Positions 4,926-39,481 of a stretch of DNA of 47,797 nucleotides are shown piece after piece. How positions within the stretch are numbered: position 1 is the stretch's first letter; the number at the start of each line of letters is the position of its first letter. Where the stretch lies: contig CAYRSI010000001.1 of NCBI GenBank assembly GCA_964426965.1, positions 1-47,797 on the forward strand, given 5' to 3'. The notes under the pieces were generated by a model that was not told the origin of the DNA, did no database searches, and worked only from the letters and a program-made list of their open reading frames with translations. Made by a program: the position numbers and the translations under genes. The stretch comes from an uncultured Candidatus Saccharibacteria bacterium (GTDB taxonomy: Bacteria > Patescibacteriota > Minisyncoccia > RBG-13-40-8-A > JAUWHN01).

Positions 4926-5550
4926 AGGTCTTTTCTATCACTTTTACTGCTTCTTTTGGCATTAATAGGTATTTGAATGATAACAAATCCAAAACGTTTA
5001 AGCTATCTGCTCGAAGAGTCTTTGTGTAGGGAACGTTTTTATTGGCTCTAACAATATTTTCATCTTTTGTTGAAATTACCACTAATGCACTTTTCTTTTT
5101 TTTCCCTAAGATATTCTCCAGTATTCTTGCCATCAGCCTTGTTTTTGGTTCTTGGAGTTCTAATTTATCCAATAATATTAACTCTTTATCTTTGACCTTA
5201 GAAGTTAAAACCATAAATAATGCCTTTTGCTTCATCTTTTTATTAATTTTTTTCTTAAAAACCCGTTCTTTGGTTGGCCCAAAAGTGACGCCACCTCCCC
5301 GCCAAATCGGTGAACGGATAGAACCATGACGCGCTCGACCAGTTCCTTTTTGCCGCCAGGGCTTTCTGCCACCACCACGCACCTCGCTCCTGCCCTTAGC
5401 ATGAGCTATTACCTGCCTCTTATTAGCTAACTGAGCAACCACTGCCTGATGAACCAAATCAGTATTCATCTTCACGTCAAAAATCTTTGACAACAGCTTA
5501 ACTACCCCCACTTTCTTACCTTCTGTATTATAAACATTGACACTCGGCAT
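4912..5550 (-). CDS. rplD: 50S ribosomal protein L4
   Basis: 212 aa with the GGGRKPWRQKGTGRARHGS motif. Confidence 0.96.
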   Translation of the reverse strand: MPSVNVYNTEGKKVGVVKLLSKIFDVKMNTDLVHQAVVAQLANKRQVIAHAKGRSEVRGGGRKPWRQKGTGRARHGSIRSPIWRGGGVTFGPTKERVFKKKINKKMKQKALFMVLTSKVKDKELILLDKLELQEPKTRLMARILENILGKKKKSALVVISTKDENIVRANKNVPYTKTLRADSLNVLDLLSFKYLLMPKEAVKVIEKTYVII

Positions 5551-5554
5551 ATTT

Positions 5555-6205
5555 CTATTGAGATTTAATCTCGACCAAACCTCTATTTGCTCCTGAAACT
5601 GCTCCTTTTACTGCTAATAAATTATTTTCTTTATCTACTTTTACAATTTTTAATCCAGTTGTAGTAACTCGATTAGCGCCTGCATGACCGGGCATTTTTT
5701 TGCCTTTAACCACCCTCTGAGGAAACATGGAACCAATTGAACCAGGCGTACGTAAAACATGACGGTGGCCGTGCGAAGCCGGTCCACCGCTAAATCCATG
5801 TTTTTTAACTACTCCTTGAAATCCCTTTCCCTTAGAAATTCCTGAAATTTTAACAATATCCCCCTCTTTAAATACACTGACATCGATTTTATCGCCTATT
5901 TTTGGAAATTGAGAATTGCCAGCCTTCGGCCCGCTTCGACTCAGCGAGGCGAGCTGGTCAGCCGTAGGCTGAAAAATTGGAAATTCTTTCAGGTATCTGT
6001 ATGGTTTTTTGTTCTGGGACTTCTTGACTTTCTTCTCTTTTAATTTCTCATATCCAATCTGAACAGCCTGGTAATTGTCTTTATCGCTGGTTTTTATCTG
6101 GGTAATAAAACACGGTCCTGCTTCAATAACTGTCACAGGAATAACGTTCCCTTCTTTGTCAAAAATTTGACTCATGCCAAGTTTTCTACCTAATATAAAT
6201 TCCAT
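5555..6205 (-). CDS. rplC: 50S ribosomal protein L3
   Basis: Start set at ATG 6203-6205 (MEFILGRKLGMSQIFDKEGNVIPVTVIE), which matches the usual L3 N-terminus. The track start at 6229 lies in the spacer repeat. Confidence 0.93.
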   Translation of the reverse strand: MEFILGRKLGMSQIFDKEGNVIPVTVIEAGPCFITQIKTSDKDNYQAVQIGYEKLKEKKVKKSQNKKPYRYLKEFPIFQPTADQLASLSRSGPKAGNSQFPKIGDKIDVSVFKEGDIVKISGISKGKGFQGVVKKHGFSGGPASHGHRHVLRTPGSIGSMFPQRVVKGKKMPGHAGANRVTTTGLKIVKVDKENNLLAVKGAVSGANRGLVEIKSQ

Positions 6206-6380
6206 GTAATCAGCGAATAACGAATTCATTACGAATTTACGAATAATAAATACCGGGGTCTAATCCGGTATTGCATAAAAATCGGTTAGCACCCTGTTAT
6301 TTGTTTTATTGAAAATAATTACAAAAATTCATAATTTCGAAAATTCGTATATTCGAAATAGATTCGTTATTCGTTGATGA
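6206..6380. repeat. CGAAT-word spacer element: long imperfect inverted repeat around an ATACCGG hairpin
   Basis: CGAATAACGAAT (6214-6225) against ATTCGTTATTCG (6362-6373), with further CGAAT/ATTCG words on both arms. Central hairpin ATACCGG-N8-CCGGTAT at 6250-6271. Confidence 0.85.
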
Positions 6381-6779
6381 TCACATCTTAATTTCTATAT
6401 CAACACCAGCGGGTAAATTCAAATTCATCATTGCGTCTATAATTCTTGAATTAGGATTGTAAATATCTATTAAACGCTTATGGGTTCTCATTTCGTACTG
6501 CTCCCTGGAATTCTTATGAACAAAACTAGATCTATTCACTGTATACTTGTGAATTTGCGTAGGTAAGGGTATGGGTCCCACAACCTCTGCTCCCTGTCGT
6601 TCAATAGCTTCCACAATCTGCCTGGCTGACTGATCAATAATTTTATGGTCATAAGCCCGTATCTTAATTCTAAGCCGTGATTTTGGCTCCTCAACTTCTT
6701 TTTTTTCGACGCTCGCTTTTGACGAGGTCGAGACCCCGACCCCAGCAGGCGTCGGGGCTTTCTTCCTTTTTGTTTTCAT
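6381..6779 (-). CDS. rpsJ: 30S ribosomal protein S10 with a ~30-aa N-terminal extension
   Basis: [23 protein letters not shown]...THKRLIDI is the S10 core. Confidence 0.95.
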
Positions 6780-6790
6780 TTAAGAATAAC

Positions 6791-7975
6791 TTACTTTACA
6801 ATTTTCGTTACCACGCCCGCTCCGACTGTCTTCCCTCCTTCTCTAATAGCAAATCTTTGCTTCTCTTCAAGAGCGACTGGCGCCATTAACTTAACTTTTA
6901 AATTAACAGTATCACCTGGCATTACCATTTCGGTTCCTTCGGGAAGAGTTGCCTCTCCGGTAACGTCAGTAGTTCGGATATAAAACTGGGGTTTATAGCC
7001 AGTGAAGAAAGGGGTGTGACGACCACCTTCTTCCTTGGTTAAAATATATATCTCCCCCTCGAATTCAGTATGAGGAGTTACGCTTTTGGGCTTGGCTATT
7101 ACCTGCCCTCGTTCAACGTCCTCTTTCTTTGTTCCTCGAAGCAAAATTCCGGCATTATCTCCAGCCCGTCCTTCATCCAACGACTTATTAAACATCTCAA
7201 TGCCAGTAATCACAGTCTTTTGGGTATCGCGCAAACCAATAATTTCTACTTCTTCATTAATCTTTAGAATTCCTCTTTCAATTCTTCCAGTAACCACGGT
7301 TCCTCGCCCTTCAATCGAAAAAATATCCTCAATCGGCATAAGAAATGGTTTGTCAACCTCTCGCTTTGGTTCAGGAATATTTTCGTCAAGAGCTTTAAGC
7401 AATTCATCAATTGATTTCATTTCCTCTTCTGAGCCTTCCATTGCCTTTAGAGAAGAACCCTTAATTACTGGAATTTTATCGCCATCAAACTCATATTTGG
7501 TCAAAAGCTCTCTTATTTCTGTTTCAACTAAATCTATAAGTTCAGGATCATCCACCTGATCGGTTTTGTTAAGATAAACAACGATAGAAGGCACGCCTAC
7601 TTGACGAGCAAGAAGAATATGCTCTCGAGTCTGAGGCATTGGCCCGTCAGCAGCTGAAACTACTAATATTGCTCCGTCCATTTGAGCAGCGCCGGTAATC
7701 ATATTCTTAATATAATCAGCATGACCAGGTGCATCAATGTGAGCATAATGCCTCTTATCTGTTTCATATTCAACATGAGCAAGAGCAATGGTAATACCTC
7801 GCTCTTTTTCTTCTGGGGCGTTATCAATTTCATCTACGCCCTTTTCCGAGGCTCTAAGCCCCTTTGATTTTTGTCTTTTAAGTATAGCTGCAGTCAACGT
7901 GGTTTTACCATGGTCAACATGACCAATGGTTCCCACGTTAAGATGCGGCTTTGTTCTTTCAAATTTTTCCGCCAT
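6791..7975 (-). CDS. tuf: elongation factor Tu
   Basis: 394 aa with [15 protein letters not shown] and NKTD motifs. Confidence 0.98.
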
Positions 7976-7980
7976 ATTTT

Positions 7981-8053
7981 TAGCTTCTTAGCTTGTAGCT
8001 TGTAGCTTCTTAGAATTCCTAAAAAGCTAAAAAGCTAATTCCTAAAAAGCTAG
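7981..8053. repeat. AGCT-word spacer element, copy f (opposite orientation to copy a)
   Basis: TAGCTTGTAGCTTGTAGCTTCTTAGAATTCCTAAAAAGCTAAAAAGCTA equals the reverse complement of part of 104-176. The arms can fold as an imperfect hairpin around GAATTC. Confidence 0.9.
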
Positions 8054-31836: not shown

Positions 31837-31906
31837 ATTATAACGAAATACGAAGTAATTGTCAATAGCTTAAGCTATTGACAACTCTCTTAATAAAGTA
31901 TAATAT
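31837..31906. promoter_or_regulatory. Divergent consensus promoters sharing a perfect 26-bp palindrome that contains both -35 boxes
   Basis: Palindrome TTGTCAATAGCTTAAGCTATTGACAA at 31859-31884. Minus strand: TTGACA-17-TATAAT (-10 at 31837-31842). Plus strand: TTGACA (31878-31883) then TATAAT at 31899-31904 or TAATAT at 31901-31906. Confidence 0.7.
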
Positions 31907-31980
31907 GAAATGTTCAGTGTCCTTTGACACAAAAAATAAATGAAACCCCCAATGTTCATCGGGGGTAAAGGAGAAAGAAA

Positions 31981-34900
31981 ATGAAAAGAAAAATTCTGAT
32001 TTTGAGTTTGATTGTTTTATTCGCCCTGGCTTTAATGCCTCAAATAGCTAAGGCCCAGACACAGTATCCAGAACTTCAAAGGTGGTACCAAGATATTTAT
32101 TCTTACGGATTCGGAAAAAACTGGATTCGCTGGCATAAATTTGATTGGAAGGTTTACAAGGGAGCAGAACACGTTGATATTTACTATTACATTACCCCTG
32201 AAGAAAAAAGGCTTCATCAAGATGACCTTGAAGACTATGAAAAAAAGGTCCTAAAGAAATGCGTGCGCTACGCAGAAACAGCTTATAGAACAGTGAGCAA
32301 GAAATTAAGATACGAAATTCCAGAAAAACACGGTCGAGCTAAACTATACTTTTATCTAACTCGCTCAGACTATGAACAGAGCAATATAGGCGCAACAAGT
32401 CCTCCTGGCGGCTCAGCTTTTGCTGAAATGATTCAATGGAGAGTAGTCCTTGTTCGAGATGATTATACAGACGAATTTACCCAGAAACTTACAACCCACG
32501 AAATGACTCACATCTTTCAATTCTCGCTTTGGTGGGGTGGAAAACTCTGGCCCAGTCCAGCTAACTCAAAGGTTAGACAGCTGTCTCAACAGATATTGTT
32601 TTTACTTGAAGGAATGGCTCAATATATTCCAGATATTTTCCCTTCTGAATATGAAAACTTTCTGCGGTGGCTGGTTTTAACTGACAATATTCCTCAGATT
32701 GAATACTGGACAGTGCCAGGCCTTGCCCATTCCTGGGAAATCAATTACTTAATTGCCCGGGAATTCTGGAAATTCATTGAAGAAGAGTACGGCGAACACG
32801 CTTTTCGGAACATAGTTCACGAGTTCAGAAAAGCCAAACCCACTTTCAGAGGAATGAAAAAAGTATTCAAAGAAGTTTTGCAGAAAAATGGTTTTGCTGA
32901 CTTTAACAGAAAATTCAGATTATATCTAAAAAACAGATATAAAGCTTCAGTAGCAGTTAAAAAAGAAATCGATGAATACGGCAGAAATCTCTTGGCGCAA
33001 GAAAATCTTTTAAATCCAAATAAAGAAATACCAAGATGGGTAATAGAGCCAGTAGCTTCTCCAAACGGTGATTTGATTGGTGCTCTAGGTGGAGAAATTG
33101 ATCTAGATATACTAATAATCAGCAGAAAGGATGAAGCCAAATTAGGAAATCTAACCAAGGGACTTAGCTGGAATAAATATGGCTGGTGGATTATTACTAA
33201 TCCTAATAGTCCGGGTAGAAGCATTTCCTGGTCTCCAGACGGAGATTATATACTTTTCTTTAGCAGAACCGGTGAAAAAAGAAGCCTCTTTATTGTTGAA
33301 CTAATTACCAAACTAAAAACTGACTTTCGAGGAAAAAGTAGAAGTAAGCTTGTTGGAAAGGTTTATAAGAAAATAGACTTAGACCTTGATCAGGCTGAAT
33401 CTCCAGAAATGTCTAAAGACGGAAAAACTGTTGTTTTCTCAGCCCTGGAAGCTGGTCAAAGTGATTTGTTTCTGCTTAATTTAGAAACTGAATCAATCAC
33501 AAATTTGACCAATGACGAACAATTTGATTATGCGCCTGTCTGGTCCCCTGATGAAAGAAGGATTATCTATGTGGTTAATGTTAAAGGTTATAATAAACTC
33601 TTTAGCTTAGATGTGGCAACTGGAACAAAAACTCAACTGACTTTTGGCCCCAGCAATGAAACTCGTCCTGCTTTTAGCAAGGATGGATCTCAAATCCTTT
33701 TCATTTCTGACCGAGGCGAACATAGAATTACCAATATTTATGCTCTGGATATTCAAACTGTAAAAATCAGCCAAATGACTGATTTGCTCTATGGCATTAG
33801 TTCCTTCTGCCCATTAGAGGACAAAACTATAGTAGTTAGTAGCCGAGGATACAAGAATCTTCTAGAACGATACAATTATAATCTACATCTCGTTACACCT
33901 GAACAACCAGTAAATGATGATGTTAAAGATCTATTAAGGGAAAATAAAATAGTTTCAGAACCTCAAAAAATCGAAGAAATTGAAATTGATGAAACAAAAA
34001 TTGAAGAATACAAACCGCTAAAGAACATTCATATAGCCTATATTAGCGGACAAGGAGCAGTTGATAGTTATTATGGTCAGCGCACTTCCATCACTCTTGC
34101 TCTTTCTGATTCTACTGGAGATCACAGACTTTATGCAAATTATGCTAACTTTTCTTGGTGGAAATACACATACTTTTCAACAACTTATGTTAATCTTTGC
34201 AAACGAATGCAATATGGGATTGTGGCATCTTCTGAAACTCACTATCTCTATCCTTACTATCTCGGACGTTTCTTTGGTTATACTCAAACAGAAATGGATG
34301 ATGTTTTGAAATACCTGCAATTAGACCAGAAAGGACTTAATAGTTTTGCTTTCTACCCCCTTGATGCATTTCACCGAGTAGAATTCAGTTTAGGAGCTCA
34401 TAATACCAAGTATATTCATCCAGACTGGCAAATCCAGGCTGACGAGTTGGCTGAAGCAATGGAAATTTTACCATTGCCATGGCTTATTGCTGAAAAAGAA
34501 ACATATGAATTACGAGCTGATTTCTTGCAAAGCAATTTTAAGGGTGGAAAATACTTCACCTTGGGAGCTGCTTTTGTTAGAGATACTGCCCGAGGCCATT
34601 TTATTGGCAGCAAGCAGCGAATAGACTTGAGTTATAGTACTGGCGGACACAATAGATCTATCAGGATTGAAGCTATTAAATACTTACCGTTTTCCAAAAC
34701 AGCTGGCTTTGCTCTTCGAGGAGTTTGGAGTCAGCAGCGCGGAAATACCATTCATCCTGTTGTGGTAGGAGAATTCGCTGAAATACCTCGCTACGGGGTA
34801 ATTATGAAGTTTGCTGGAAATGATTTCTGGATGACTAGCGCTGAATTACGATTTCCTTTTATCAGACGAATAGATATAGCTGGATTAGGTCCAATAATAA

Positions 34901-35151
34901 GAAATACTCGAGCCGCCCTGTTTGCTGACATATTTGAAATCAAGTGGTCTGATGACAGATTTAATGTCTTTAATCAAGACGAGATTAATTCAAGCTCAAT
35001 AAAGGGAGTGGCAGGAATTAACCTAAGTTTAGGGTTTGTTCCCTTCTTTGGTCCTGTTAATTTCTCAATCAGTAAGAGAGTAATAGATTGGAGTCCTTTA
35101 ACTTTGGAAAAGGGTTGGCGATACCGATTCTATCTGGGTTGGGAATTCTAA
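31981..35151 (+). CDS. secreted fusion protein: MA-clan zinc peptidase plus PD40/TolB-like beta-propeller repeats plus Omp85 (bacterial surface antigen) beta-barrel
   Basis: Signal peptide (...PQIAKA-Q). HEMTH followed by LLEGMAQY. Four repeats of W/F-SPDG/SKDG-x-I-x-F. C-terminal AELRFPF...ALFADIFE...GINLSLGF...RYRFYLGWEF ends in an aromatic residue. Confidence 0.75.
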   Translation: MKRKILILSLIVLFALALMPQIAKAQTQYPELQRWYQDIYSYGFGKNWIRWHKFDWKVYKGAEHVDIYYYITPEEKRLHQDDLEDYEKKVLKKCVRYAETAYRTVSKKLRYEIPEKHGRAKLYFYLTRSDYEQSNIGATSPPGGSAFAEMIQWRVVLVRDDYTDEFTQKLTTHEMTHIFQFSLWWGGKLWPSPANSKVRQLSQQILFLLEGMAQYIPDIFPSEYENFLRWLVLTDNIPQIEYWTVPGLAHSWEINYLIAREFWKFIEEEYGEHAFRNIVHEFRKAKPTFRGMKKVFKEVLQKNGFADFNRKFRLYLKNRYKASVAVKKEIDEYGRNLLAQENLLNPNKEIPRWVIEPVASPNGDLIGALGGEIDLDILIISRKDEAKLGNLTKGLSWNKYGWWIITNPNSPGRSISWSPDGDYILFFSRTGEKRSLFIVELITKLKTDFRGKSRSKLVGKVYKKIDLDLDQAESPEMSKDGKTVVFSALEAGQSDLFLLNLETESITNLTNDEQFDYAPVWSPDERRIIYVVNVKGYNKLFSLDVATGTKTQLTFGPSNETRPAFSKDGSQILFISDRGEHRITNIYALDIQTVKISQMTDLLYGISSFCPLEDKTIVVSSRGYKNLLERYNYNLHLVTPEQPVNDDVKDLLRENKIVSEPQKIEEIEIDETKIEEYKPLKNIHIAYISGQGAVDSYYGQRTSITLALSDSTGDHRLYANYANFSWWKYTYFSTTYVNLCKRMQYGIVASSETHYLYPYYLGRFFGYTQTEMDDVLKYLQLDQKGLNSFAFYPLDAFHRVEFSLGAHNTKYIHPDWQIQADELAEAMEILPLPWLIAEKETYELRADFLQSNFKGGKYFTLGAAFVRDTARGHFIGSKQRIDLSYSTGGHNRSIRIEAIKYLPFSKTAGFALRGVWSQQRGNTIHPVVVGEFAEIPRYGVIMKFAGNDFWMTSAELRFPFIRRIDIAGLGPIIRNTRAALFADIFEIKWSDDRFNVFNQDEINSSSIKGVAGINLSLGFVPFFGPVNFSISKRVIDWSPLTLEKGWRYRFYLGWEF

Positions 35152-35302: not shown

Positions 35303-37498
35303 ATGAAAAAAATAAAATTTTTCGGATTGTTTATCGGGTTAATTCTGATAACTATGATGATGGCGCCATCTGCCTGGTGCGAAAAAGTAAAATTCCTAGG
35401 GGAAGATGTTGAAATTATGCCCCTGAAAAATGTCAAACCAGGAATGGTTGGTTACGGCGAATCGGTCTTTGACGGATCTCAAGAAATTAAAAGATTCGAA
35501 GTAGAAATTAAATCAATCAATTTCTATATTAAAAACAAGTATATTATTTGGGCTAAAGTATGGGGCGGTCCTAATAATATTATTGACCGAGCAGGAGTAA
35601 TCGCCGGAATGAGCGGCAGCCCTATTTATCTCCAAGATCCTAAAGATGGCCAATATAAACTAATTGGCGCCTTAGCTTATGGATACACTTTGCAACCGCC
35701 AAGTGAGGCACTGGCAGGAATAACACCCATTAAAGAAATGTTAGGTCTTCAGGACCTACTAGCTGCATACTATGGCAAAAAAAGCAAGGATAGTACCCAA
35801 GAGCCCTTCCAATTCTTACCAAATCCAGACAAGATTAAGGTCCCTCTACTCCTTACTGGAAGCGAAAAGGCAATAAAAATCTTCAAAACAGAAATGAAGA
35901 AAAGACTTCCTTTTAAGTTTTTTGAACGGAGAAATCCTGGATCTAATGCTGCCTCTCAAGTTAAAACTGAAACGGGTGATAATCAGTTAGACATAACTCC
36001 AAGGACCCTAAAACCGGGAGAACCGATTTCAGCCGTTCTTTCAACAGGAGACCTCGCTCTCGCTGCTACCGGAACTGTTACTTTGGCTAATTCCAAAGGA
36101 TTTTTGGCTTTTGGCCACCCATTTCTTTGGACAGGTATAAGTAATATCCCGGTCTTCAGGGCGGAAATCGGGCTAATCGTTCCTAATATGCTTAGCAGTT
36201 TCAAAGATAACAAAAGAATAGTCAATCCCCAGCTCGGAATAATTGCAGTAGATAGTTCAGAAGGAATCTTAGGATTATGGTGCCCTCAAAATACTATGCT
36301 CCCGCTAAGCGTGAGTTTCAGCAAGCAATACATTAATGGTTTTAAAAAAGAATACCAATGGAATATAGAGATAGCACAAGAAAATCCTTATAGTAACTTT
36401 TTGCTCGCCACCGGCATTCTATACCCGATCGAATTCGGCAGTCCAAATCTTGCGTATCTAAATTTCGATATAAAAGCAGATTTTATTTATAAAGATAATG
36501 GAGACGAACAAAGATTGTCAATCTCAAAAAGTTTTTTCTCTAAACAGGGAGAAAATATATATTCAAATGCAATAAGCTTAGGAAGCGTGTATACAATGCT
36601 TGGAAAGGCAAAAAAGAACCTGAAAGAAATTAACGTAGACATTCAAGTAACCCAGGAGAAGGCCGAAATTCCTACTCTCTATCTATTTGATGTAGAATTG
36701 GAAAAAAAGCTGGTTAAGCCGAGTAAAGAAATACTACTAAGTTTAATGCTGAGCGATAAAAAGAAGTATTATAGCCTAACAATAAAAGAGATCAAGGCGC
36801 CAGATTTCCAGGGAGAGGTAAAAATCAGAATCCAAGATAGTAACTCTCGCTTAGAATATTTAATAAACGAGGCCTTAAACGAGCCTTCGAAAATAAAAAA
36901 GGTTCTAGACTTCGCCAAGGCGTCTGCTAATAAAAAAGGTGTTTTTTATGTTGAAATCCAGCATATCAAATTAATAGCTGAACGCGAAGGAATAGACAAC
37001 AAGGGCTGGAAAGAAACAATTAAAAAAGTAGATGAATTAGTGAATACGGAAATTAGAGAGATAGAGTTACCTGAAATAGCTGGAAAATTTACCCCTTATA
37101 TTTCCTCTCAACAAACTATTCGCGTGAAAAGCGATGATATAAAAGATGATATTAGAAAAGCAGCTAAAGAAATAGTCGAAGAAACCAGAAACGATAATAC
37201 GATAAAATTCAAACCGGGATTGTTTATTAATCCTCCTATTGGTCTTTTCTCGGACCCCCACGGAAAGCTAAGAATGAATTTGCTTGGATTAGATGTTGGG
37301 CTACTAAAATATAAAAGGTTACAGATATTCAATTTTGGTTTTGGAATTGCTAATGGACCAGGTAGTACAAAACTTTATGTTAAGTTTGCGCCAGTCAAGG
37401 CACATGTTTGGAAAGGTCTGTTTGCTGAAGTAAGTGTAGGAATTAATGATAACGGTAAAGTTCTATTCGGCTTAGGTTTTTCTCTAAAAATAAAATAA
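35303..37498 (+). CDS. secreted SpoIVB-like (S55 family) serine peptidase domain protein with a long C-terminal region
   Basis: Signal peptide, GVIAGMSGSPIY (SpoIVB-type Ser motif), GTVTLANSKGFLAFGHPF. The C-terminal ~100 aa has an alternating beta-strand-like pattern. Confidence 0.65.
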   Translation: MKKIKFFGLFIGLILITMMMAPSAWCEKVKFLGEDVEIMPLKNVKPGMVGYGESVFDGSQEIKRFEVEIKSINFYIKNKYIIWAKVWGGPNNIIDRAGVIAGMSGSPIYLQDPKDGQYKLIGALAYGYTLQPPSEALAGITPIKEMLGLQDLLAAYYGKKSKDSTQEPFQFLPNPDKIKVPLLLTGSEKAIKIFKTEMKKRLPFKFFERRNPGSNAASQVKTETGDNQLDITPRTLKPGEPISAVLSTGDLALAATGTVTLANSKGFLAFGHPFLWTGISNIPVFRAEIGLIVPNMLSSFKDNKRIVNPQLGIIAVDSSEGILGLWCPQNTMLPLSVSFSKQYINGFKKEYQWNIEIAQENPYSNFLLATGILYPIEFGSPNLAYLNFDIKADFIYKDNGDEQRLSISKSFFSKQGENIYSNAISLGSVYTMLGKAKKNLKEINVDIQVTQEKAEIPTLYLFDVELEKKLVKPSKEILLSLMLSDKKKYYSLTIKEIKAPDFQGEVKIRIQDSNSRLEYLINEALNEPSKIKKVLDFAKASANKKGVFYVEIQHIKLIAEREGIDNKGWKETIKKVDELVNTEIREIELPEIAGKFTPYISSQQTIRVKSDDIKDDIRKAAKEIVEETRNDNTIKFKPGLFINPPIGLFSDPHGKLRMNLLGLDVGLLKYKRLQIFNFGFGIANGPGSTKLYVKFAPVKAHVWKGLFAEVSVGINDNGKVLFGLGFSLKIK

Positions 37499-37501
37499 AA
37501 T

Positions 37502-37542
37502 AAAAAATCCGCACTCTTCTTCAATTTGAAGAATGCGGATTT
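37502..37542. terminator. Bidirectional terminator between convergent genes
   Basis: AAAAAATCCGCA-N-TGCGGATTT hairpin with an inner TTCTTCAA/TTGAAGAA stem. Confidence 0.75.
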
Positions 37543-38581
37543 AATTTTGCTTTAAAACAACTATTAGTAAACAAAGAACAAAAACGCCTCCAAACAAATG
37601 CAACCAAATATCATAGTAGGCTTTTTCTGTTTTTCTCTCTTTTTCTGATTCTCTTTCAAGAACATCTTTAAACCCCTTAGTCAAATTCTCTCCGGCTTCA
37701 GAATAAATGTATTTTCCTCCGGTTGCTCGTGCAATTTTCTTCAATGTTTCTTCTTCTAACTTACTATAGACTCTTTGTCCGCCCTCATCTTCATCTTTCA
37801 TATAAAGAATTCTGCCTTGTTCATCTATTTCTTCAACAACATAACCGCCCGCTCGAGACCCAACTCCAATGGCATAAACAGGAATTCTTCTTTGTCGAAT
37901 CTCTCCTATTGCTTGATCTAAATTCTCTCCAAGATCTTCGCCATCAGAAATTAAAATAAACACTCTTCTATTTTTAGGCCGCTTAAAAATTTCCGGATTA
38001 CTATCAATGGTGTCAAGCATCTCCAAGCCGATTCTAATTGCTCCTCCAATATCTGTTCCTTCGGGCGGAAAATCCTTAACATCTAAATAATCAACATGGA
38101 ATAACAAAGAACCAACATCAAAAGTAAAAAAAGATCGATATATGGCTTCATTGCCAAAAGCAATTAAAGCCATCTGATTTTTCTTTTTGCCAACATGATC
38201 TTTTGCAAAATTTCTTAGCTCCTCTTTAACTAAATCCAAACGAAATACTTTCCTGGCTCCCCAGAAAACATCCCTGGTATTCATTGATCTTGAAAGGTCT
38301 ATTAAGCAAACTATATCAAGCGACTTTTTTATAACTGCTGATTTATCATAAGAAATTTGCGGGCCAGCAAGAGCAAAAATAATTAAACCAACTACTAAAA
38401 CCACCAAACAGTACATCAATATCTCTTTTGCCTTTGATGAGAATTCGGAAATATCCCTCAGCTTGCTTTCCTCCCATGTTTTTCTTGCCCTGAATTTACT
38501 TTTCAAGCTCAAAAACAAAGAAATTAAAATTAGAGGAAGTAAAAAAAACAAATCTAGAAATTCTAGCCTTAAAAATCTCAT
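37541..38581 (-). CDS. VWA-domain membrane protein (BatB-like)
   Basis: N- and C-terminal TM helices. MIDAS motif DLSRSM and ILISDGED. Confidence 0.8.
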   Translation of the reverse strand: MRFLRLEFLDLFFLLPLILISLFLSLKSKFRARKTWEESKLRDISEFSSKAKEILMYCLVVLVVGLIIFALAGPQISYDKSAVIKKSLDIVCLIDLSRSMNTRDVFWGARKVFRLDLVKEELRNFAKDHVGKKKNQMALIAFGNEAIYRSFFTFDVGSLLFHVDYLDVKDFPPEGTDIGGAIRIGLEMLDTIDSNPEIFKRPKNRRVFILISDGEDLGENLDQAIGEIRQRRIPVYAIGVGSRAGGYVVEEIDEQGRILYMKDEDEGGQRVYSKLEEETLKKIARATGGKYIYSEAGENLTKGFKDVLERESEKERKTEKAYYDIWLHLFGGVFVLCLLIVVLKQN

Positions 38582-38587
38582 TGCTTT

Positions 38588-39415
38588 TTATCCTTTTTTC
38601 TTTTTCTTTTTCTTATTAGATCCCGAGGTATCCTCGGATTTTTCCTTGCTTTTTTCATCAGTAGGAACTAAAACTTTTCCTATCTTTTTTTCACCTTTTT
38701 TCTTATCCTTGTCCATTTTTTTCCCTTCTGCTTTTTTCCCTTGCTGACCTTCTGTCTGCTTTTTCTGATTAGATTTTATTTGCTTTTCCTTGGCCTTTTG
38801 TGCTAATTTTTCCTTTTTTTCTTTATCTTTCTTTTTCTGCTTGGCTGCCTGCTGCATAGATTTCTTCAGCTTTTTAGGATCCTGCCTAAAGAATTCGTAG
38901 TTGTATTTGATACCCCAATCTTTTCCATCATTTGCTTTCACTGCCTCGCCAGAATTTGCCTTTGCTCCTTCAAGAAATTGGTTTATTTTTTTAGAATAGA
39001 GCGCCTTTTTATCCAATTTAATAAATAAGTCAACTCCTTTTTGCCAACAAATCAGGGCTTGCAAATTATAAAGTTGATCTTTGTAAATAGATTTTTCTTT
39101 TTTTAACTCTTGACTTACAATCTCCTCTGCTAACTCATATTTTCCCGAATCATAATAACCCTGATAGTAAAAAGACCAAGCCCGAGCCAGGGTAATACCA
39201 TGAATATCTTCTTGAAAAAACTTAATTTTAGAAAACGACCATTTTCCCAAATCTCCTATTCCTTTTTCATAAAGCTGTTCGGCTGTTTCATAGTCACCGC
39301 AGCTATAGGCCTTTTCAGCATCAGCAGGAACCTTATTCGACTTGCCGTAAAATACAAAACTCAATCCAATCGCTAAAATAAGTAATACTCCTAAAACCCT
39401 AAATAATACTTTCAT
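38588..39415 (-). CDS. TPR-like helical protein with a Lys-rich tail (BatC-like)
   Basis: N-terminal TM/signal, helical repeats (YSCGDYETAEQLYEKG...), and ~90 aa of K/E low complexity. Confidence 0.55.
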   Translation of the reverse strand: MKVLFRVLGVLLILAIGLSFVFYGKSNKVPADAEKAYSCGDYETAEQLYEKGIGDLGKWSFSKIKFFQEDIHGITLARAWSFYYQGYYDSGKYELAEEIVSQELKKEKSIYKDQLYNLQALICWQKGVDLFIKLDKKALYSKKINQFLEGAKANSGEAVKANDGKDWGIKYNYEFFRQDPKKLKKSMQQAAKQKKKDKEKKEKLAQKAKEKQIKSNQKKQTEGQQGKKAEGKKMDKDKKKGEKKIGKVLVPTDEKSKEKSEDTSGSNKKKKKKKG

Positions 39416-39481
39416 CGTATTCTCCTTTTATAAATTTTAAAGGTACAAAATTCGCATATAAAAAAGGGATCTGTTGTTTAA

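What the first reader, a model, noticed from the sequence alone, without database searches (positions are those of the whole stretch)
31981..35151. Zinc peptidase plus PD40 propeller fused to a C-terminal Omp85-type barrel, in a genome that otherwise looks monoderm-like
- One 1056-aa secreted protein combines an MA-clan peptidase module (HEMTH ... EGMAQY) and at least four PD40/TolB-like blades (WSPDGDYILF, SKDGKTVVF, WSPDERRIIY, SKDGSQILF).
- It ends in a ~370-aa C-terminal region with Omp85/surface-antigen hallmarks (AELRFPF, ALFADIFE, GINLSLGF, terminal RYRFYLGWEF).
- A barrel at the C-terminus of a protease/propeller suggests a self-anchored or self-exported surface protease.
- The window also encodes LCP, a split ComEC, PaaX-like and other features common in ultra-small monoderm-like lineages.
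- The Omp85 barrel and the Bat operon are therefore an envelope-type clue worth resolving.
Basis: partly seen in the sequence, partly recalled or inferred. Interest (0 to 1): 0.6.

Follow-up and report, generated by a model that had tools for sequence, protein, structure and literature searches.

The report
Outer-membrane-type barrel protease in CPR bacterium
A tiny bacterium from a group thought to have a single membrane keeps, under selection, a secreted zinc protease fused to the barrel that normally sits only in Gram-negative outer membranes. Either its envelope or its contact with other cells is therefore not what is assumed.

Summary
ORF 31981-35151 encodes a 1056-aa secreted protein. 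It has an HExxH+E zinc-peptidase module, a six-bladed TolB/PD40 propeller and a 16-stranded Omp85 barrel (AlphaFold pLDDT 81; Foldseek BamA barrel E~1e-10).

This architecture is the uncharacterised 'WD40-Omp85' class of Heinz & Lithgow (2014), so the protein type is not new. The host is what is unusual:
- It is a 0.93-Mb Patescibacteria/CPR genome, with nearest named EF-Tu relatives in Patescibacteria and no L30.
- I found no BamA, LpxC, LptD, LptA, TolC, secretin, Skp or OmpA-like gene.

The gene heads a conserved ~12-kb island, followed by an S55-like protease and a MoxR/DUF58/VWA 'Bat-like' operon. The island is present in 3 of 5 genomes of its family and in none of the 11 other genomes of its order.

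All domains are under purifying selection (dN/dS 0.19-0.33), and the barrel keeps its lipid-facing hydrophobic pattern. A lineage-restricted small beta-rich secreted domain (weakly OmpA-barrel-like) co-occurs with the island and is lost with it.

Best reading: a horizontally acquired, barrel-anchored wall-zone protease. The membrane that holds the barrel is unknown.

The Bat operon is not an outer-membrane marker. This scan had already noted the same architecture in at least three other CPR genomes.

The parts
31859..31905 (+). Candidate promoter: palindrome TTGTCAATAGCTTAAGCTATTGACAA carrying TTGACA, followed about 17 nt later by TATAAT-like boxes
   Evidence: Sequence read. Consensus-like only; not tested.
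31970..31973 (+). Shine-Dalgarno GGAG, 7 nt before the ATG at 31981
31981..32055 (+). Sec signal peptide (residues 1-25, predicted cleavage after AKA)
   Evidence: the N-terminus is conserved in orthologues. A database gene call of 1038 aa (P0001) starts 18 codons later and would lack it.
32113..33000 (+). Mainly helical zinc-peptidase module (residues ~45-340). HEMTH is at residues 173-177 (32497-32511). The third ligand candidate E210 is at 32608-32610.
   Evidence: H173, E174, H177 and E210 are invariant in 42 sequences. More distant homologues carry Pfam PF13485 Peptidase_MA_2. The window protein itself gives only weak hits: BSP E 0.024 and MXAN_6640 HExxH E 0.079.
33028..33900 (+). Six-bladed PD40/TolB-like beta-propeller (residues ~350-640)
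   Evidence: Pfam PD40 E 2.7e-21. TolB TIGR02800 E 2.8e-29. PDB TolB E 8e-14. DSSP shows six four-stranded blades. Foldseek matches TolB.
33901..34026 (+). Linker (residues 641-682). No POTRA domain.
   Evidence: No POTRA hit in Pfam. DSSP shows no beta-alpha-alpha-beta-beta unit here.
34027..35151 (+). 16-stranded Omp85-type barrel (residues 683-1056) plus the stop codon. Loop 4 has two helices (residues 816-852). Loop 6 (residues 921-947) carries PRYG in place of the family's LRGY. F981-x-D983 lies on strand 13. The protein ends ...YLGWEF.
   Evidence: Strand amphipathicity is retained. dN/dS is 0.33.
35303..37498 (+). Downstream partner gene: a secreted 731-aa S55 (SpoIVB)-like serine-peptidase-domain protein. 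Residues 632-731 (37196-37495) are a ~100-aa beta-rich C-terminal extension.
   Evidence: Pfam PF05580 E 3.9e-6. Syntenic in four assemblies. It has the same phyletic pattern as the barrel gene. Extension family.
37541..43503 (-). Bat-like operon on the minus strand. Gene order is MoxR AAA_3, DUF58, an unknown 343-aa protein, VWA, a K-rich 275-aa protein, VWA. It is part of the same conserved island.
   Evidence: Pfam. Synteny in G401, G403 and GCA_041643275. DUF58 is found in the same 3 of 16 genomes of the order and in only 4 of 301 genomes of the phylum sample.

Best explanation
**What it is.** A member of the PD40(WD40)-Omp85 class carrying an MA-type zinc peptidase. An ancestor of this CPR family acquired it from a diderm (Acidobacteriota-type) lineage, and it has been kept since.

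**How it most likely works** (the steps are inferred unless marked as shown)
1. The protein is exported by Sec and its signal peptide is cut after AKA.
2. The C-terminal 16-stranded barrel folds into a lipid bilayer and serves as the anchor.
3. The peptidase and the six-bladed propeller stay on the side from which the barrel inserted. In this cell that is the wall zone between membrane and surface.
4. There, the propeller gates or holds peptide or protein substrates for the zinc site.

**Which bilayer.** The genome has nothing with which to build or supply a second membrane. The bilayer is therefore most likely the cell's own membrane, entered from its outer face. Less likely, it is an envelope at a cell-cell contact.

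**Wider module (shown by synteny and co-occurrence).** The gene works within a conserved accessory island, together with an S55-like protease and a MoxR/DUF58/VWA operon.

**Possible second role (inferred).** The barrel may also help insert the lineage-specific small beta-rich modules that co-occur with it.
For: - **Architecture and barrel fold:**
- **Family membership:** PF01103 is over its cut-off in the orthologues of G403 (39.8 bits) and G401 (30 bits), and it is the only Omp85 hit in those genomes.
- **CPR host:** the nearest named EF-Tu relatives are 'Patescibacteria group' and Ca. Portnoybacteria at 82-85%. There is no L30. Genomes of the same phylum are 0.5-1.7 Mb.
- **No OM machinery in a 92%-complete genome:** PF01103, LpxC, LptD, OEP/TolC, secretin, OmpA_C, OMP_b-brl, Skp and LptD_N/LptA were all not found. 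No other ORF has a signal peptide plus an OMP-type C-terminus.
- **Not contamination:** the gene lies on the same 47.8-kb contig as the str/S10 operons, ftsAZ, hisS, lepB and pth. The same island occurs in four independent assemblies.
- **Foreign origin:** the CPR clade is monophyletic (support 100) on a long stem among 65-70% GC Acidobacteriota-type sequences.
- **Confined distribution:** the gene is in 3 of 16 genomes of the order and in none of the 400 other genomes sampled from the phylum.
- **Maintained by selection:** dN/dS is 0.19 (peptidase), 0.20 (propeller) and 0.33 (barrel).
- **Barrel still membrane-adapted:** the out/in strand hydrophobicity is as strong in the CPR clade (+0.86/-0.86) as in the other members (+0.85/-0.74).
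- **Cis-side location of the enzyme domain:** by analogy with PlpD (PMC11116518).
Against: - No Omp85 protein is known from a cytoplasmic membrane, and nothing here shows where the protein sits.
- Pfam PF01103 does not recognise the window's own barrel.
- The loop-6 motif is altered (PRYG instead of RGY), and loop 4 has lost 18 residues relative to the closest relative. This genus may therefore be drifting functionally.
- The barrel is the least constrained domain.
- The donor lineage is inferred from a few named hits only: Sulfidibacter, Aminicenantes and Thermoanaerobaculia.
- Peptidase activity is inferred from motifs alone.
- Earlier notes of this scan report similar genes in other CPR genomes. 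A possible second CPR lineage (L030) joins this clade with weak support. The gene may therefore be older in CPR than a single family-level transfer.
Confidence: 0.5

Rival explanations
1. Cryptic second membrane. This CPR subclade has an unrecognised outer lipid layer. The fusion protein is its minimal Omp85 insertase. The lineage-specific small beta-rich proteins (standalone, and as the tail of the S55-like protease) are its barrel clients. The peptidase and propeller would then act in a periplasm-like space.
For: - Omp85 is commonly used as a proxy for an outer membrane (PMC10160955).
- The barrel keeps its lipid-facing pattern.
- A secreted ~150-aa beta-rich family occurs only in the genomes that have the barrel gene, at unlinked loci. 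It is missing together with the island in G404, the sister of this genome.
- Its model has about eight long strands. Its top structural matches are all 8-stranded outer-membrane barrels: OmpA 1qjp (E 0.017, probability 0.97), OprF, Ail and OmpW.
- Some copies end in ...SLKF or ...KIF.
Against: - No lipid-export, LPS, tether, chaperone or channel genes were found.
- No Foldseek match for the small domain reaches E 0.001, and TM-scores are only 0.3-0.4.
- The co-occurrence rests on one gain and one loss among kin.
- Known CPR cells are described as single-membraned (PMC8871954; also my own knowledge of cryo-EM work on groundwater CPR and TM7x).
Confidence: 0.2
2. Host-directed barrel. The protein is released or presented at the contact site, and its barrel inserts into the outer membrane (or mycomembrane) of the host cell. 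This would fix a protease at the interface for attachment or feeding.
For: - CPR bacteria are typically epibionts or parasites. One cultured member depends on its host's mycolic-acid outer layer for attachment (PMC11880426).
- The gene and its S55-like neighbour both have nearest non-CPR relatives in Acidobacteriota-type genomes. This would fit acquisition from a host.
- The island contains three secreted proteases and VWA adhesion-type domains.
Against: - Insertion of an Omp85 barrel from the outside of a foreign outer membrane has no precedent.
- Once inserted, nothing obvious would tether the protein to the CPR cell.
- The host is unknown.
Confidence: 0.15
3. Functionless relic, or an artefact. 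Either the gene is a decaying remnant of a transfer, or the contig is chimeric or mis-binned.
For: - The window copy is the most divergent of its clade, and PF01103 no longer detects it.
- In some metagenome assemblies the orthologue is called as two pieces, split near the propeller-barrel linker.
- G404 and G402 lack the gene.
Against: - The 1056-codon frame is intact and dN/dS is 0.19-0.33 in every domain.
- Catalytic and barrel motifs are invariant.
- The GC content equals that of the genome.
- The gene shares a contig with ribosomal and cell-division genes.
- The same island occurs in four assemblies.
Confidence: 0.05

Closest known systems
WD40-Omp85 subfamily of the Omp85/TpsB superfamily (Heinz & Lithgow 2014, PMC4104836)
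   Same: - A TolB-like beta-propeller directly precedes an Omp85 barrel, with no POTRA domain.
- The function is uncharacterised.
- Full-length homologues (26-30% identity) occur in diderm phyla, for example Sulfidibacter corallicola and Aminicenantes.
   Different: - The host is a CPR/Patescibacteria genome with no other outer-membrane gene.
- The paper's text names only the propeller. This family also carries an N-terminal HExxH+E peptidase module.
- The CPR clade sits on a long branch with an altered loop-6 motif.
- It is paired with an S55-like protease and a Bat-like operon. This pairing is not seen in the two non-CPR (65-70% GC) loci I looked at.
BamA (the Omp85 insertase of the BAM complex)
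   Same: - A 16-stranded barrel with a helical loop 4 and a loop 6 that carries an R-(G)-Y motif facing an F-x-D motif on strand 13.
- A C-terminal aromatic residue.
- Foldseek E 1e-10 and profile E 6e-11.
   Different: - No POTRA domains.
- No BamD or other partners in the genome.
- No recognisable client OMPs, except possibly the small beta-rich family.
- Only 14% identity in the structural alignment.
PlpD (patatin-Omp85 fusion, 'type Vd'; Hanson et al. 2024, PMC11116518)
   Same: An enzyme domain fused N-terminally to an Omp85 barrel. It is the best precedent for the enzyme staying on the cis side and for the barrel acting as a scaffold or anchor.
   Different: PlpD has a POTRA domain and a lipase rather than a peptidase. 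It sits in a normal outer membrane assembled by BAM.
TolB, and tricorn/DPP-IV-type propeller-gated peptidases
   Same: A six-bladed PD40 propeller (TolB E 8e-14). A propeller next to a peptidase suggests substrate gating.
   Different: There is no Tol-Pal system here. The peptidase is an MA-type metalloenzyme, not a serine peptidase. Any propeller-peptidase cooperation is inferred.

Membership tests
Omp85/TpsB superfamily | C-terminal 16-stranded transmembrane beta-barrel | tested here: met
   AlphaFold2 gives 16 long strands at residues 683-1052 with pLDDT mostly 80-95. Foldseek against BamA barrels gives E 1e-10 and TM 0.57-0.64.
Omp85/TpsB superfamily | Sequence match to the Omp85 barrel model (Pfam PF01103) by the window protein itself | tested here: not met
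   No hit at E up to 10 on the protein or on its C-terminal part. None in the six-frame genome search.
Omp85/TpsB superfamily | Sequence match of the orthologous family to Omp85 barrels | tested here: met
   PF01103 scores 39.8 and 30 bits (cut-off 24) in the G403 and G401 orthologues. The family profile matches BamA barrels at E 6e-11 and 9ccg_A at E 1e-17.
Omp85/TpsB superfamily | Loop-6 (V/L)RG(Y/F) motif and the F-x-D-x-G motif on strand 13 | tested here: inconclusive
   The family consensus is LRGY and F-x-D-x-G. The window protein has EIPRYG and F981-A-D983-I-F. R, Y, F and D are kept, while the G residues are not.
Omp85/TpsB superfamily | At least one POTRA domain before the barrel | tested here: not met
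   No POTRA family in Pfam. The 42-residue linker has no POTRA-like secondary structure. The same is true of the WD40-Omp85 and noNterm classes (PMC4104836).
Omp85/TpsB superfamily | Residence in an outer membrane | not testable with these tools
   There is only indirect evidence: the lipid-facing strand pattern is conserved. The genome lacks OM biogenesis genes.
WD40-Omp85 subfamily | TolB-like beta-propeller immediately N-terminal to the barrel | tested here: met
   PD40 E 2.7e-21 and TolB E 2.8e-29. Six blades at residues 350-640 in the model. Description in PMC4104836.
MA-clan zinc metallopeptidase (Peptidase_MA_2, PF13485) | HExxH plus a downstream Glu as third zinc ligand, conserved in the family | tested here: met
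   H173, E174, H177 and E210 are invariant in 42 sequences.
MA-clan zinc metallopeptidase (Peptidase_MA_2, PF13485) | Significant match of the window protein to a curated peptidase model | tested here: not met
   Only sub-threshold hits: PF04450 BSP E 0.024 and NF045524 HExxH E 0.079. PF13485 is on record for more distant homologues only.
MA-clan zinc metallopeptidase (Peptidase_MA_2, PF13485) | Proteolytic activity | not testable with these tools
   Requires an enzyme assay.
BAM machinery (BamA proper) | Five POTRA domains and a BamD partner, with client OMPs in the genome | tested here: not met
   There is no POTRA domain. BamD itself was not searched for, so its absence is not shown. The target is the only ORF with a signal peptide and an OMP-type C-terminus, apart from one doubtful 266-aa ORF.
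Diderm envelope (organism level) | Outer-membrane marker genes (BamA, LpxC, LptD/LptA, TolC, secretin, Skp, OmpA-like) | tested here: not met
   All were absent from the 92%-complete genome, while the control genomes rang. No PF01103 hit over the cut-off in 400 genomes of the phylum. That model is insensitive to this divergent clade.
CPR / Patescibacteria (organism level) | Small genome, no ribosomal protein L30, housekeeping genes nearest to named CPR | tested here: met
   0.93 Mb. No L30. EF-Tu is 82-85% identical to 'Patescibacteria group' and Ca. Portnoybacteria entries. Two family-mates are deposited as uncultured Ca. Saccharibacteria.

The most novel reading that the evidence does not exclude
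A subclade of CPR/Patescibacteria runs a minimal beta-barrel membrane-protein system of its own. One horizontally acquired Omp85 barrel, fused to a protease and propeller, would act as the insertase. A lineage-invented family of small (~8-stranded) barrels would serve as anchors for secreted proteins.

This would mean one of two things. Either these 'single-membrane' bacteria have an unrecognised outer lipid layer, or Omp85-type barrels can be installed in a cytoplasmic or host membrane without BAM, LPS or any known outer-membrane machinery.
Probability: 0.25. Interest if true: 0.85.

Novelty: new variant of a known kind. Interest (0 to 1): 0.66.

Why it matters
Omp85 proteins are treated as a signature of a second membrane. 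They are central to arguments about how bacteria gained or lost the outer membrane, and CPR bacteria are counted as single-membraned in those arguments.

Here an Omp85 barrel is kept under selection for long enough to diverge to 34-42% identity between genera. The genomes that keep it have no BAM partners, no LPS or lipid transport and no recognisable client proteins.

That leaves three possibilities:
- The envelope of some CPR lineages has been mis-assigned.
- An Omp85 barrel can live and work in a membrane other than an outer membrane.
- The barrel is aimed at a host's envelope.

Each would be informative, and each can be tested with one protein that could be expressed in laboratory E. coli. 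The finding also gives a concrete functional context for the uncharacterised WD40-Omp85 class, which has had none since 2014.

Tried and rejected
**Searches that failed or were limited**
- The search for related loci with the 42-sequence alignment failed because no stretch was conserved enough. I repeated it with the 8 closest sequences.
- The listing of cluster members returned no organism names for ten homologues.
I therefore have no habitat, co-occurrence or expression data.
- PF01103 proved too insensitive for this clade, since it misses the window's own barrel. The '0 of 400 in the phylum' result is weak on its own. I repeated the survey with the protein and with the family profile. Even there, only two candidates per genome were scored.

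**Analyses that needed correcting or did not resolve**
- The first EF-G tree used a wrong ORF for G403, giving a branch length of 10. I redid it with tblastn-extracted S7, EF-G and EF-Tu.
- An 'empty site' comparison with G404 was not clean. SPaseI-LCP-Pth is conserved, but the genes that follow map to other contigs of this genome. In G401 the island is not next to pth.
I could not check directly which face of the strands points outward, nor where the N-terminal domains sit relative to the barrel.

**Readings rejected**
- Contamination or chimera, autotransporter-type self-export, and the Bat operon as an outer-membrane marker.
Full report
**1. The observation**

The ORF listing gives one ORF, 31981..35151 on the plus strand, of 1056 aa.
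- A GGAG lies 7 nt before the ATG.
- The first 25 residues form a Sec signal peptide ending AKA. Orthologues conserve it, so this start is right. The 1038-aa gene call on record (P0001) is too short.
- Pfam sees only PD40 repeats (E 2.7e-21) and NCBIfam sees TolB-propeller similarity (E 2.8e-29).
- Neither the peptidase nor the barrel reaches a curated model in this particular sequence, even when the two ends are searched alone.

**2. What the protein is**

A search of 5.8 billion proteins found about 50 full-length relatives.
- The nearest ones have 34-42% identity, and one has 87%.
- The rest have 22-30% identity. Many of them carry precomputed Pfam hits to Peptidase_MA_2 (PF13485), PD40 and Omp85 (PF01103).
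- In an alignment of 42 members, H173, E174, H177 and E210 are invariant (HExxH plus a downstream Glu). So are a series of barrel residues, including E955, R957 and P959.

AlphaFold2 on that alignment gave a confident model (pLDDT 80.7, pTM 0.81):
- a helical N-terminal domain;
- six four-stranded blades at residues 350-640;
- a 42-residue linker without POTRA-like structure;
- 16 long strands from residue 683 to 1052. Two helices sit in the loop between strands 7 and 8, and a long loop lies between strands 11 and 12.

Foldseek against the PDB returned TolB for the middle domain. For the C-terminus it returned the E. coli BamA barrel (E about 1e-10, TM 0.57-0.64 on the target). By sequence, the family profile also hits BamA barrels (E 6e-11) and one 'POTRA domain-containing protein' barrel, 9ccg_A (E 1e-17).

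The Omp85 assignment is therefore solid at family level. The window copy is a divergent member:
- its loop-6 motif reads PRYG where relatives have LRGY;
- it lacks 18 residues of loop 4 that its 87%-identical relative has.

**3. Is the architecture known?**

Yes. Heinz & Lithgow (2014, PMC4104836) defined a 'WD40-Omp85' cluster. Its members have a TolB-like propeller in place of POTRA domains, and their function is unknown. Named members of the present family come from diderm phyla: Sulfidibacter corallicola, an Aminicenantes MAG and a 'peptidase MA family metallohydrolase'.

Two homologue loci of 65-70% GC share a neighbourhood of dprA, a small TPR protein, an unknown ~240-aa protein, and then the gene. 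That neighbourhood differs from the one in this window.

**4. The organism**

The genome is 929 kb in 120 contigs, 92% complete and 1% contaminated.
- EF-Tu from the window is 82-85% identical to entries named 'Patescibacteria group bacterium' and 'Candidatus Portnoybacteria'.
- Ribosomal protein L30 is not found.
- Genomes of the same phylum in the collection are 0.5-1.7 Mb.
- Two representatives of the same family are deposited as 'uncultured Candidatus Saccharibacteria'. I treat that label as loose. Either way, this is CPR.

Six-frame searches of the whole genome found no Omp85 (PF01103), LpxC, LptD, OEP/TolC, secretin, OmpA_C, OMP_b-brl, Skp/OmpH or LptD_N/LptA. The control genomes rang in every case. 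Sortase was also absent.

A crude scan found 183 ORFs with signal-peptide-like N-termini. The target is the only one with a convincing OMP-type C-terminus; the scan also flagged one doubtful 266-aa ORF. HMMs of its N- and C-terminal parts find no paralogue.

The window also carries LCP, signal peptidase I, Pth, HisRS, FtsA/FtsZ, a split ComEC and the str/S10 ribosomal operons. The gene is therefore in the core chromosome, not on a stray contig.

**5. Distribution and history**

Within the order (16 genomes), the gene is in three: this one, G401 and G403. All three belong to its family.

In 400 other genomes sampled across the phylum, only PD40 domains match. This holds for both the protein and the family profile. 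PF01103 gives nothing over its cut-off there, but that model is blind to this clade.

In a maximum-likelihood tree of 53 full-length members, the ten CPR-type sequences form one clade (support 100) on a long stem among the other groups. Their loci have the 34-37% GC of CPR genomes.

A marker tree (S7 + EF-G + EF-Tu) gives (G402,(G401,(G403,(G000,G404)))). Monophyly of the carriers is rejected (AU p 6e-5). The simplest history is one gain after G402 split off, followed by a loss in G404, the 0.5-Mb sister of this genome. G404 keeps SPaseI-LCP-Pth, but none of the island genes follows in the next 10 kb or anywhere else in its assembly.

Two caveats apply:
- A group of three distant sequences joins the CPR clade with support of only 45. 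One of them lies on a 42%-GC contig beside ribosomal genes, with a short AlaRS like this genome's.
- Earlier notes of this scan report the same architecture in at least three other CPR genomes.

The gene may therefore be older and more scattered in CPR than my sample shows.

**6. Is it maintained?**

I compared the window gene with its 87%-identical relative (L022), using Nei-Gojobori dN/dS:

| Module | dN/dS |
|---|---|
| Peptidase | 0.19 |
| Propeller | 0.20 |
| Barrel | 0.33 |

Between genera, the barrel is as conserved (39%) as the peptidase (37%).

The alternation of hydrophobic and polar residues along the 16 strands is as strong in the CPR clade (mean Kyte-Doolittle +0.86 and -0.86) as in the other members (+0.85 and -0.74). 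I read this as a barrel that still faces lipid.

**7. The surroundings**

The next gene (35303-37498) encodes a secreted 731-aa protein with an S55/SpoIVB-like peptidase segment.
- It follows the barrel gene in G401, G403 and GCA_041643275 at 51-63% identity.
- It has exactly the same phyletic pattern as the barrel gene.
- Its more distant relatives are named from Thermoanaerobaculia, a class of Acidobacteriota.

After it comes a MoxR(AAA_3)-DUF58-unknown-VWA-K-rich-VWA operon.
- It is syntenic in the same genomes.
- It is present in the same 3 of 16 genomes of the order.
- It is rare in the phylum, with 4 of 301 genomes over the cut-off.
- DUF58 also rings in Bacillus subtilis and two archaea among the controls. 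This 'Bat-like' operon therefore says nothing about an outer membrane, although it is part of one ~12-kb accessory island with the two proteases.

**8. An unexpected extra**

The last ~100 residues of the S55-like protein are a beta-rich extension that only some orthologues have. The same domain occurs as standalone secreted proteins of 150-190 aa: in this genome (contig 18, 4625-5125), twice in G401 and once in G403. It occurs in none of the other 13 genomes of the order.

A profile search of 1.84 billion representative proteins found only 11 members, so the domain is lineage-restricted.

AlphaFold2 gives about eight long strands (pLDDT 80.9). The best PDB matches are the OmpA transmembrane domain (E 0.017, probability 0.97), OprF-N, Ail and OmpW. 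None reaches E 0.001, and TM-scores are 0.3-0.4. This is suggestive, not shown.

Because these genes are unlinked to the island yet are missing with it in G404, there is a hint of functional coupling. It rests on very few independent events among kin.

**9. How it most likely works**

Shown:
- the domain order;
- the signal peptide;
- conserved zinc-site residues;
- an Omp85-type barrel with a lipid-facing pattern;
- purifying selection;
- a conserved island;
- absence of detectable outer-membrane genes.

Inferred:
- After Sec export, the barrel inserts into a bilayer and anchors the peptidase and propeller on the cis side. This follows from the general Omp85 topology and from PlpD, whose enzyme domain stays periplasmic (PMC11116518).
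- The only bilayer the genome accounts for is the cell's own membrane, so I favour insertion from its outer face, displaying the protease in the wall zone. I hold this with modest confidence because it has no precedent.
- The rivals are a cryptic outer lipid layer with this protein as minimal insertase, a barrel aimed at a host envelope, and a relic. They are weighed in the Rival explanations section.

**10. Verdict**

The protein type is a known but uncharacterised class. Its stable presence in CPR genomes that lack all other outer-membrane genes is the interesting part, and I found no paper describing it. The scan itself has met the same thing before in other CPR genomes.

Noticed in passing
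window 37196-37495; G000 contig 18, 4625-5125 (L029:1626-2126); L028:1435-1968: A lineage-restricted beta-rich domain of ~100-150 aa. It has only 11 representatives among 1.84 billion proteins. It occurs as the tail of the S55-like protease and as standalone secreted proteins with a K-rich C-terminal tail. The model has about 8 long strands, and the top but weak structural matches are OmpA-type 8-stranded barrels.
   Followed up: partly
window 37541-43503: The MoxR-DUF58-VWA 'Bat-like' operon is rare in the phylum (4 of 301 genomes) and travels with the two protease genes as one conserved island in at least four assemblies. Its function in this setting is unknown.
   Followed up: partly
proteins P0110/P0111 and P0104/P0106: In two metagenome assemblies the orthologous gene is called as two pieces. 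In one pair (P0106/P0104) the split falls near the propeller-barrel linker. In the other (P0110/P0111) residues ~432-585 are missing. These are either assembly frameshifts or real splits or decay in some lineages.
   Followed up: no
L030 (ERZ23486238 scaffold_4789): A distant family member (P0042) lies beside a ribosomal-protein/rpoA block on a 42%-GC contig. That contig has a 245-aa RpoA without a C-terminal domain and a 549-aa AlaRS. It may be a second reduced-genome (CPR-like) lineage carrying the barrel fusion.
   Followed up: partly
L001, L002 record titles versus window 6791-7975: Family-mates are deposited as 'uncultured Candidatus Saccharibacteria'. The window's EF-Tu, however, is closest to entries named Ca. 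Portnoybacteria and 'Patescibacteria group'. The public label may be imprecise.
   Followed up: partly
L018 and L019, positions ~5400-8000: In the high-GC homologue loci the gene follows a conserved set: dprA, a small TPR protein and an unknown ~240-aa protein. This could be a clue to the function of the class in diderms.
   Followed up: no
window 45841-46536 and 43619-43715: A Y1 (IS200/RAYT-like) transposase ORF lies at the far end of the island. The island sits at different chromosomal places in G000 and G401, which suggests rearrangement or mobility.
   Followed up: no
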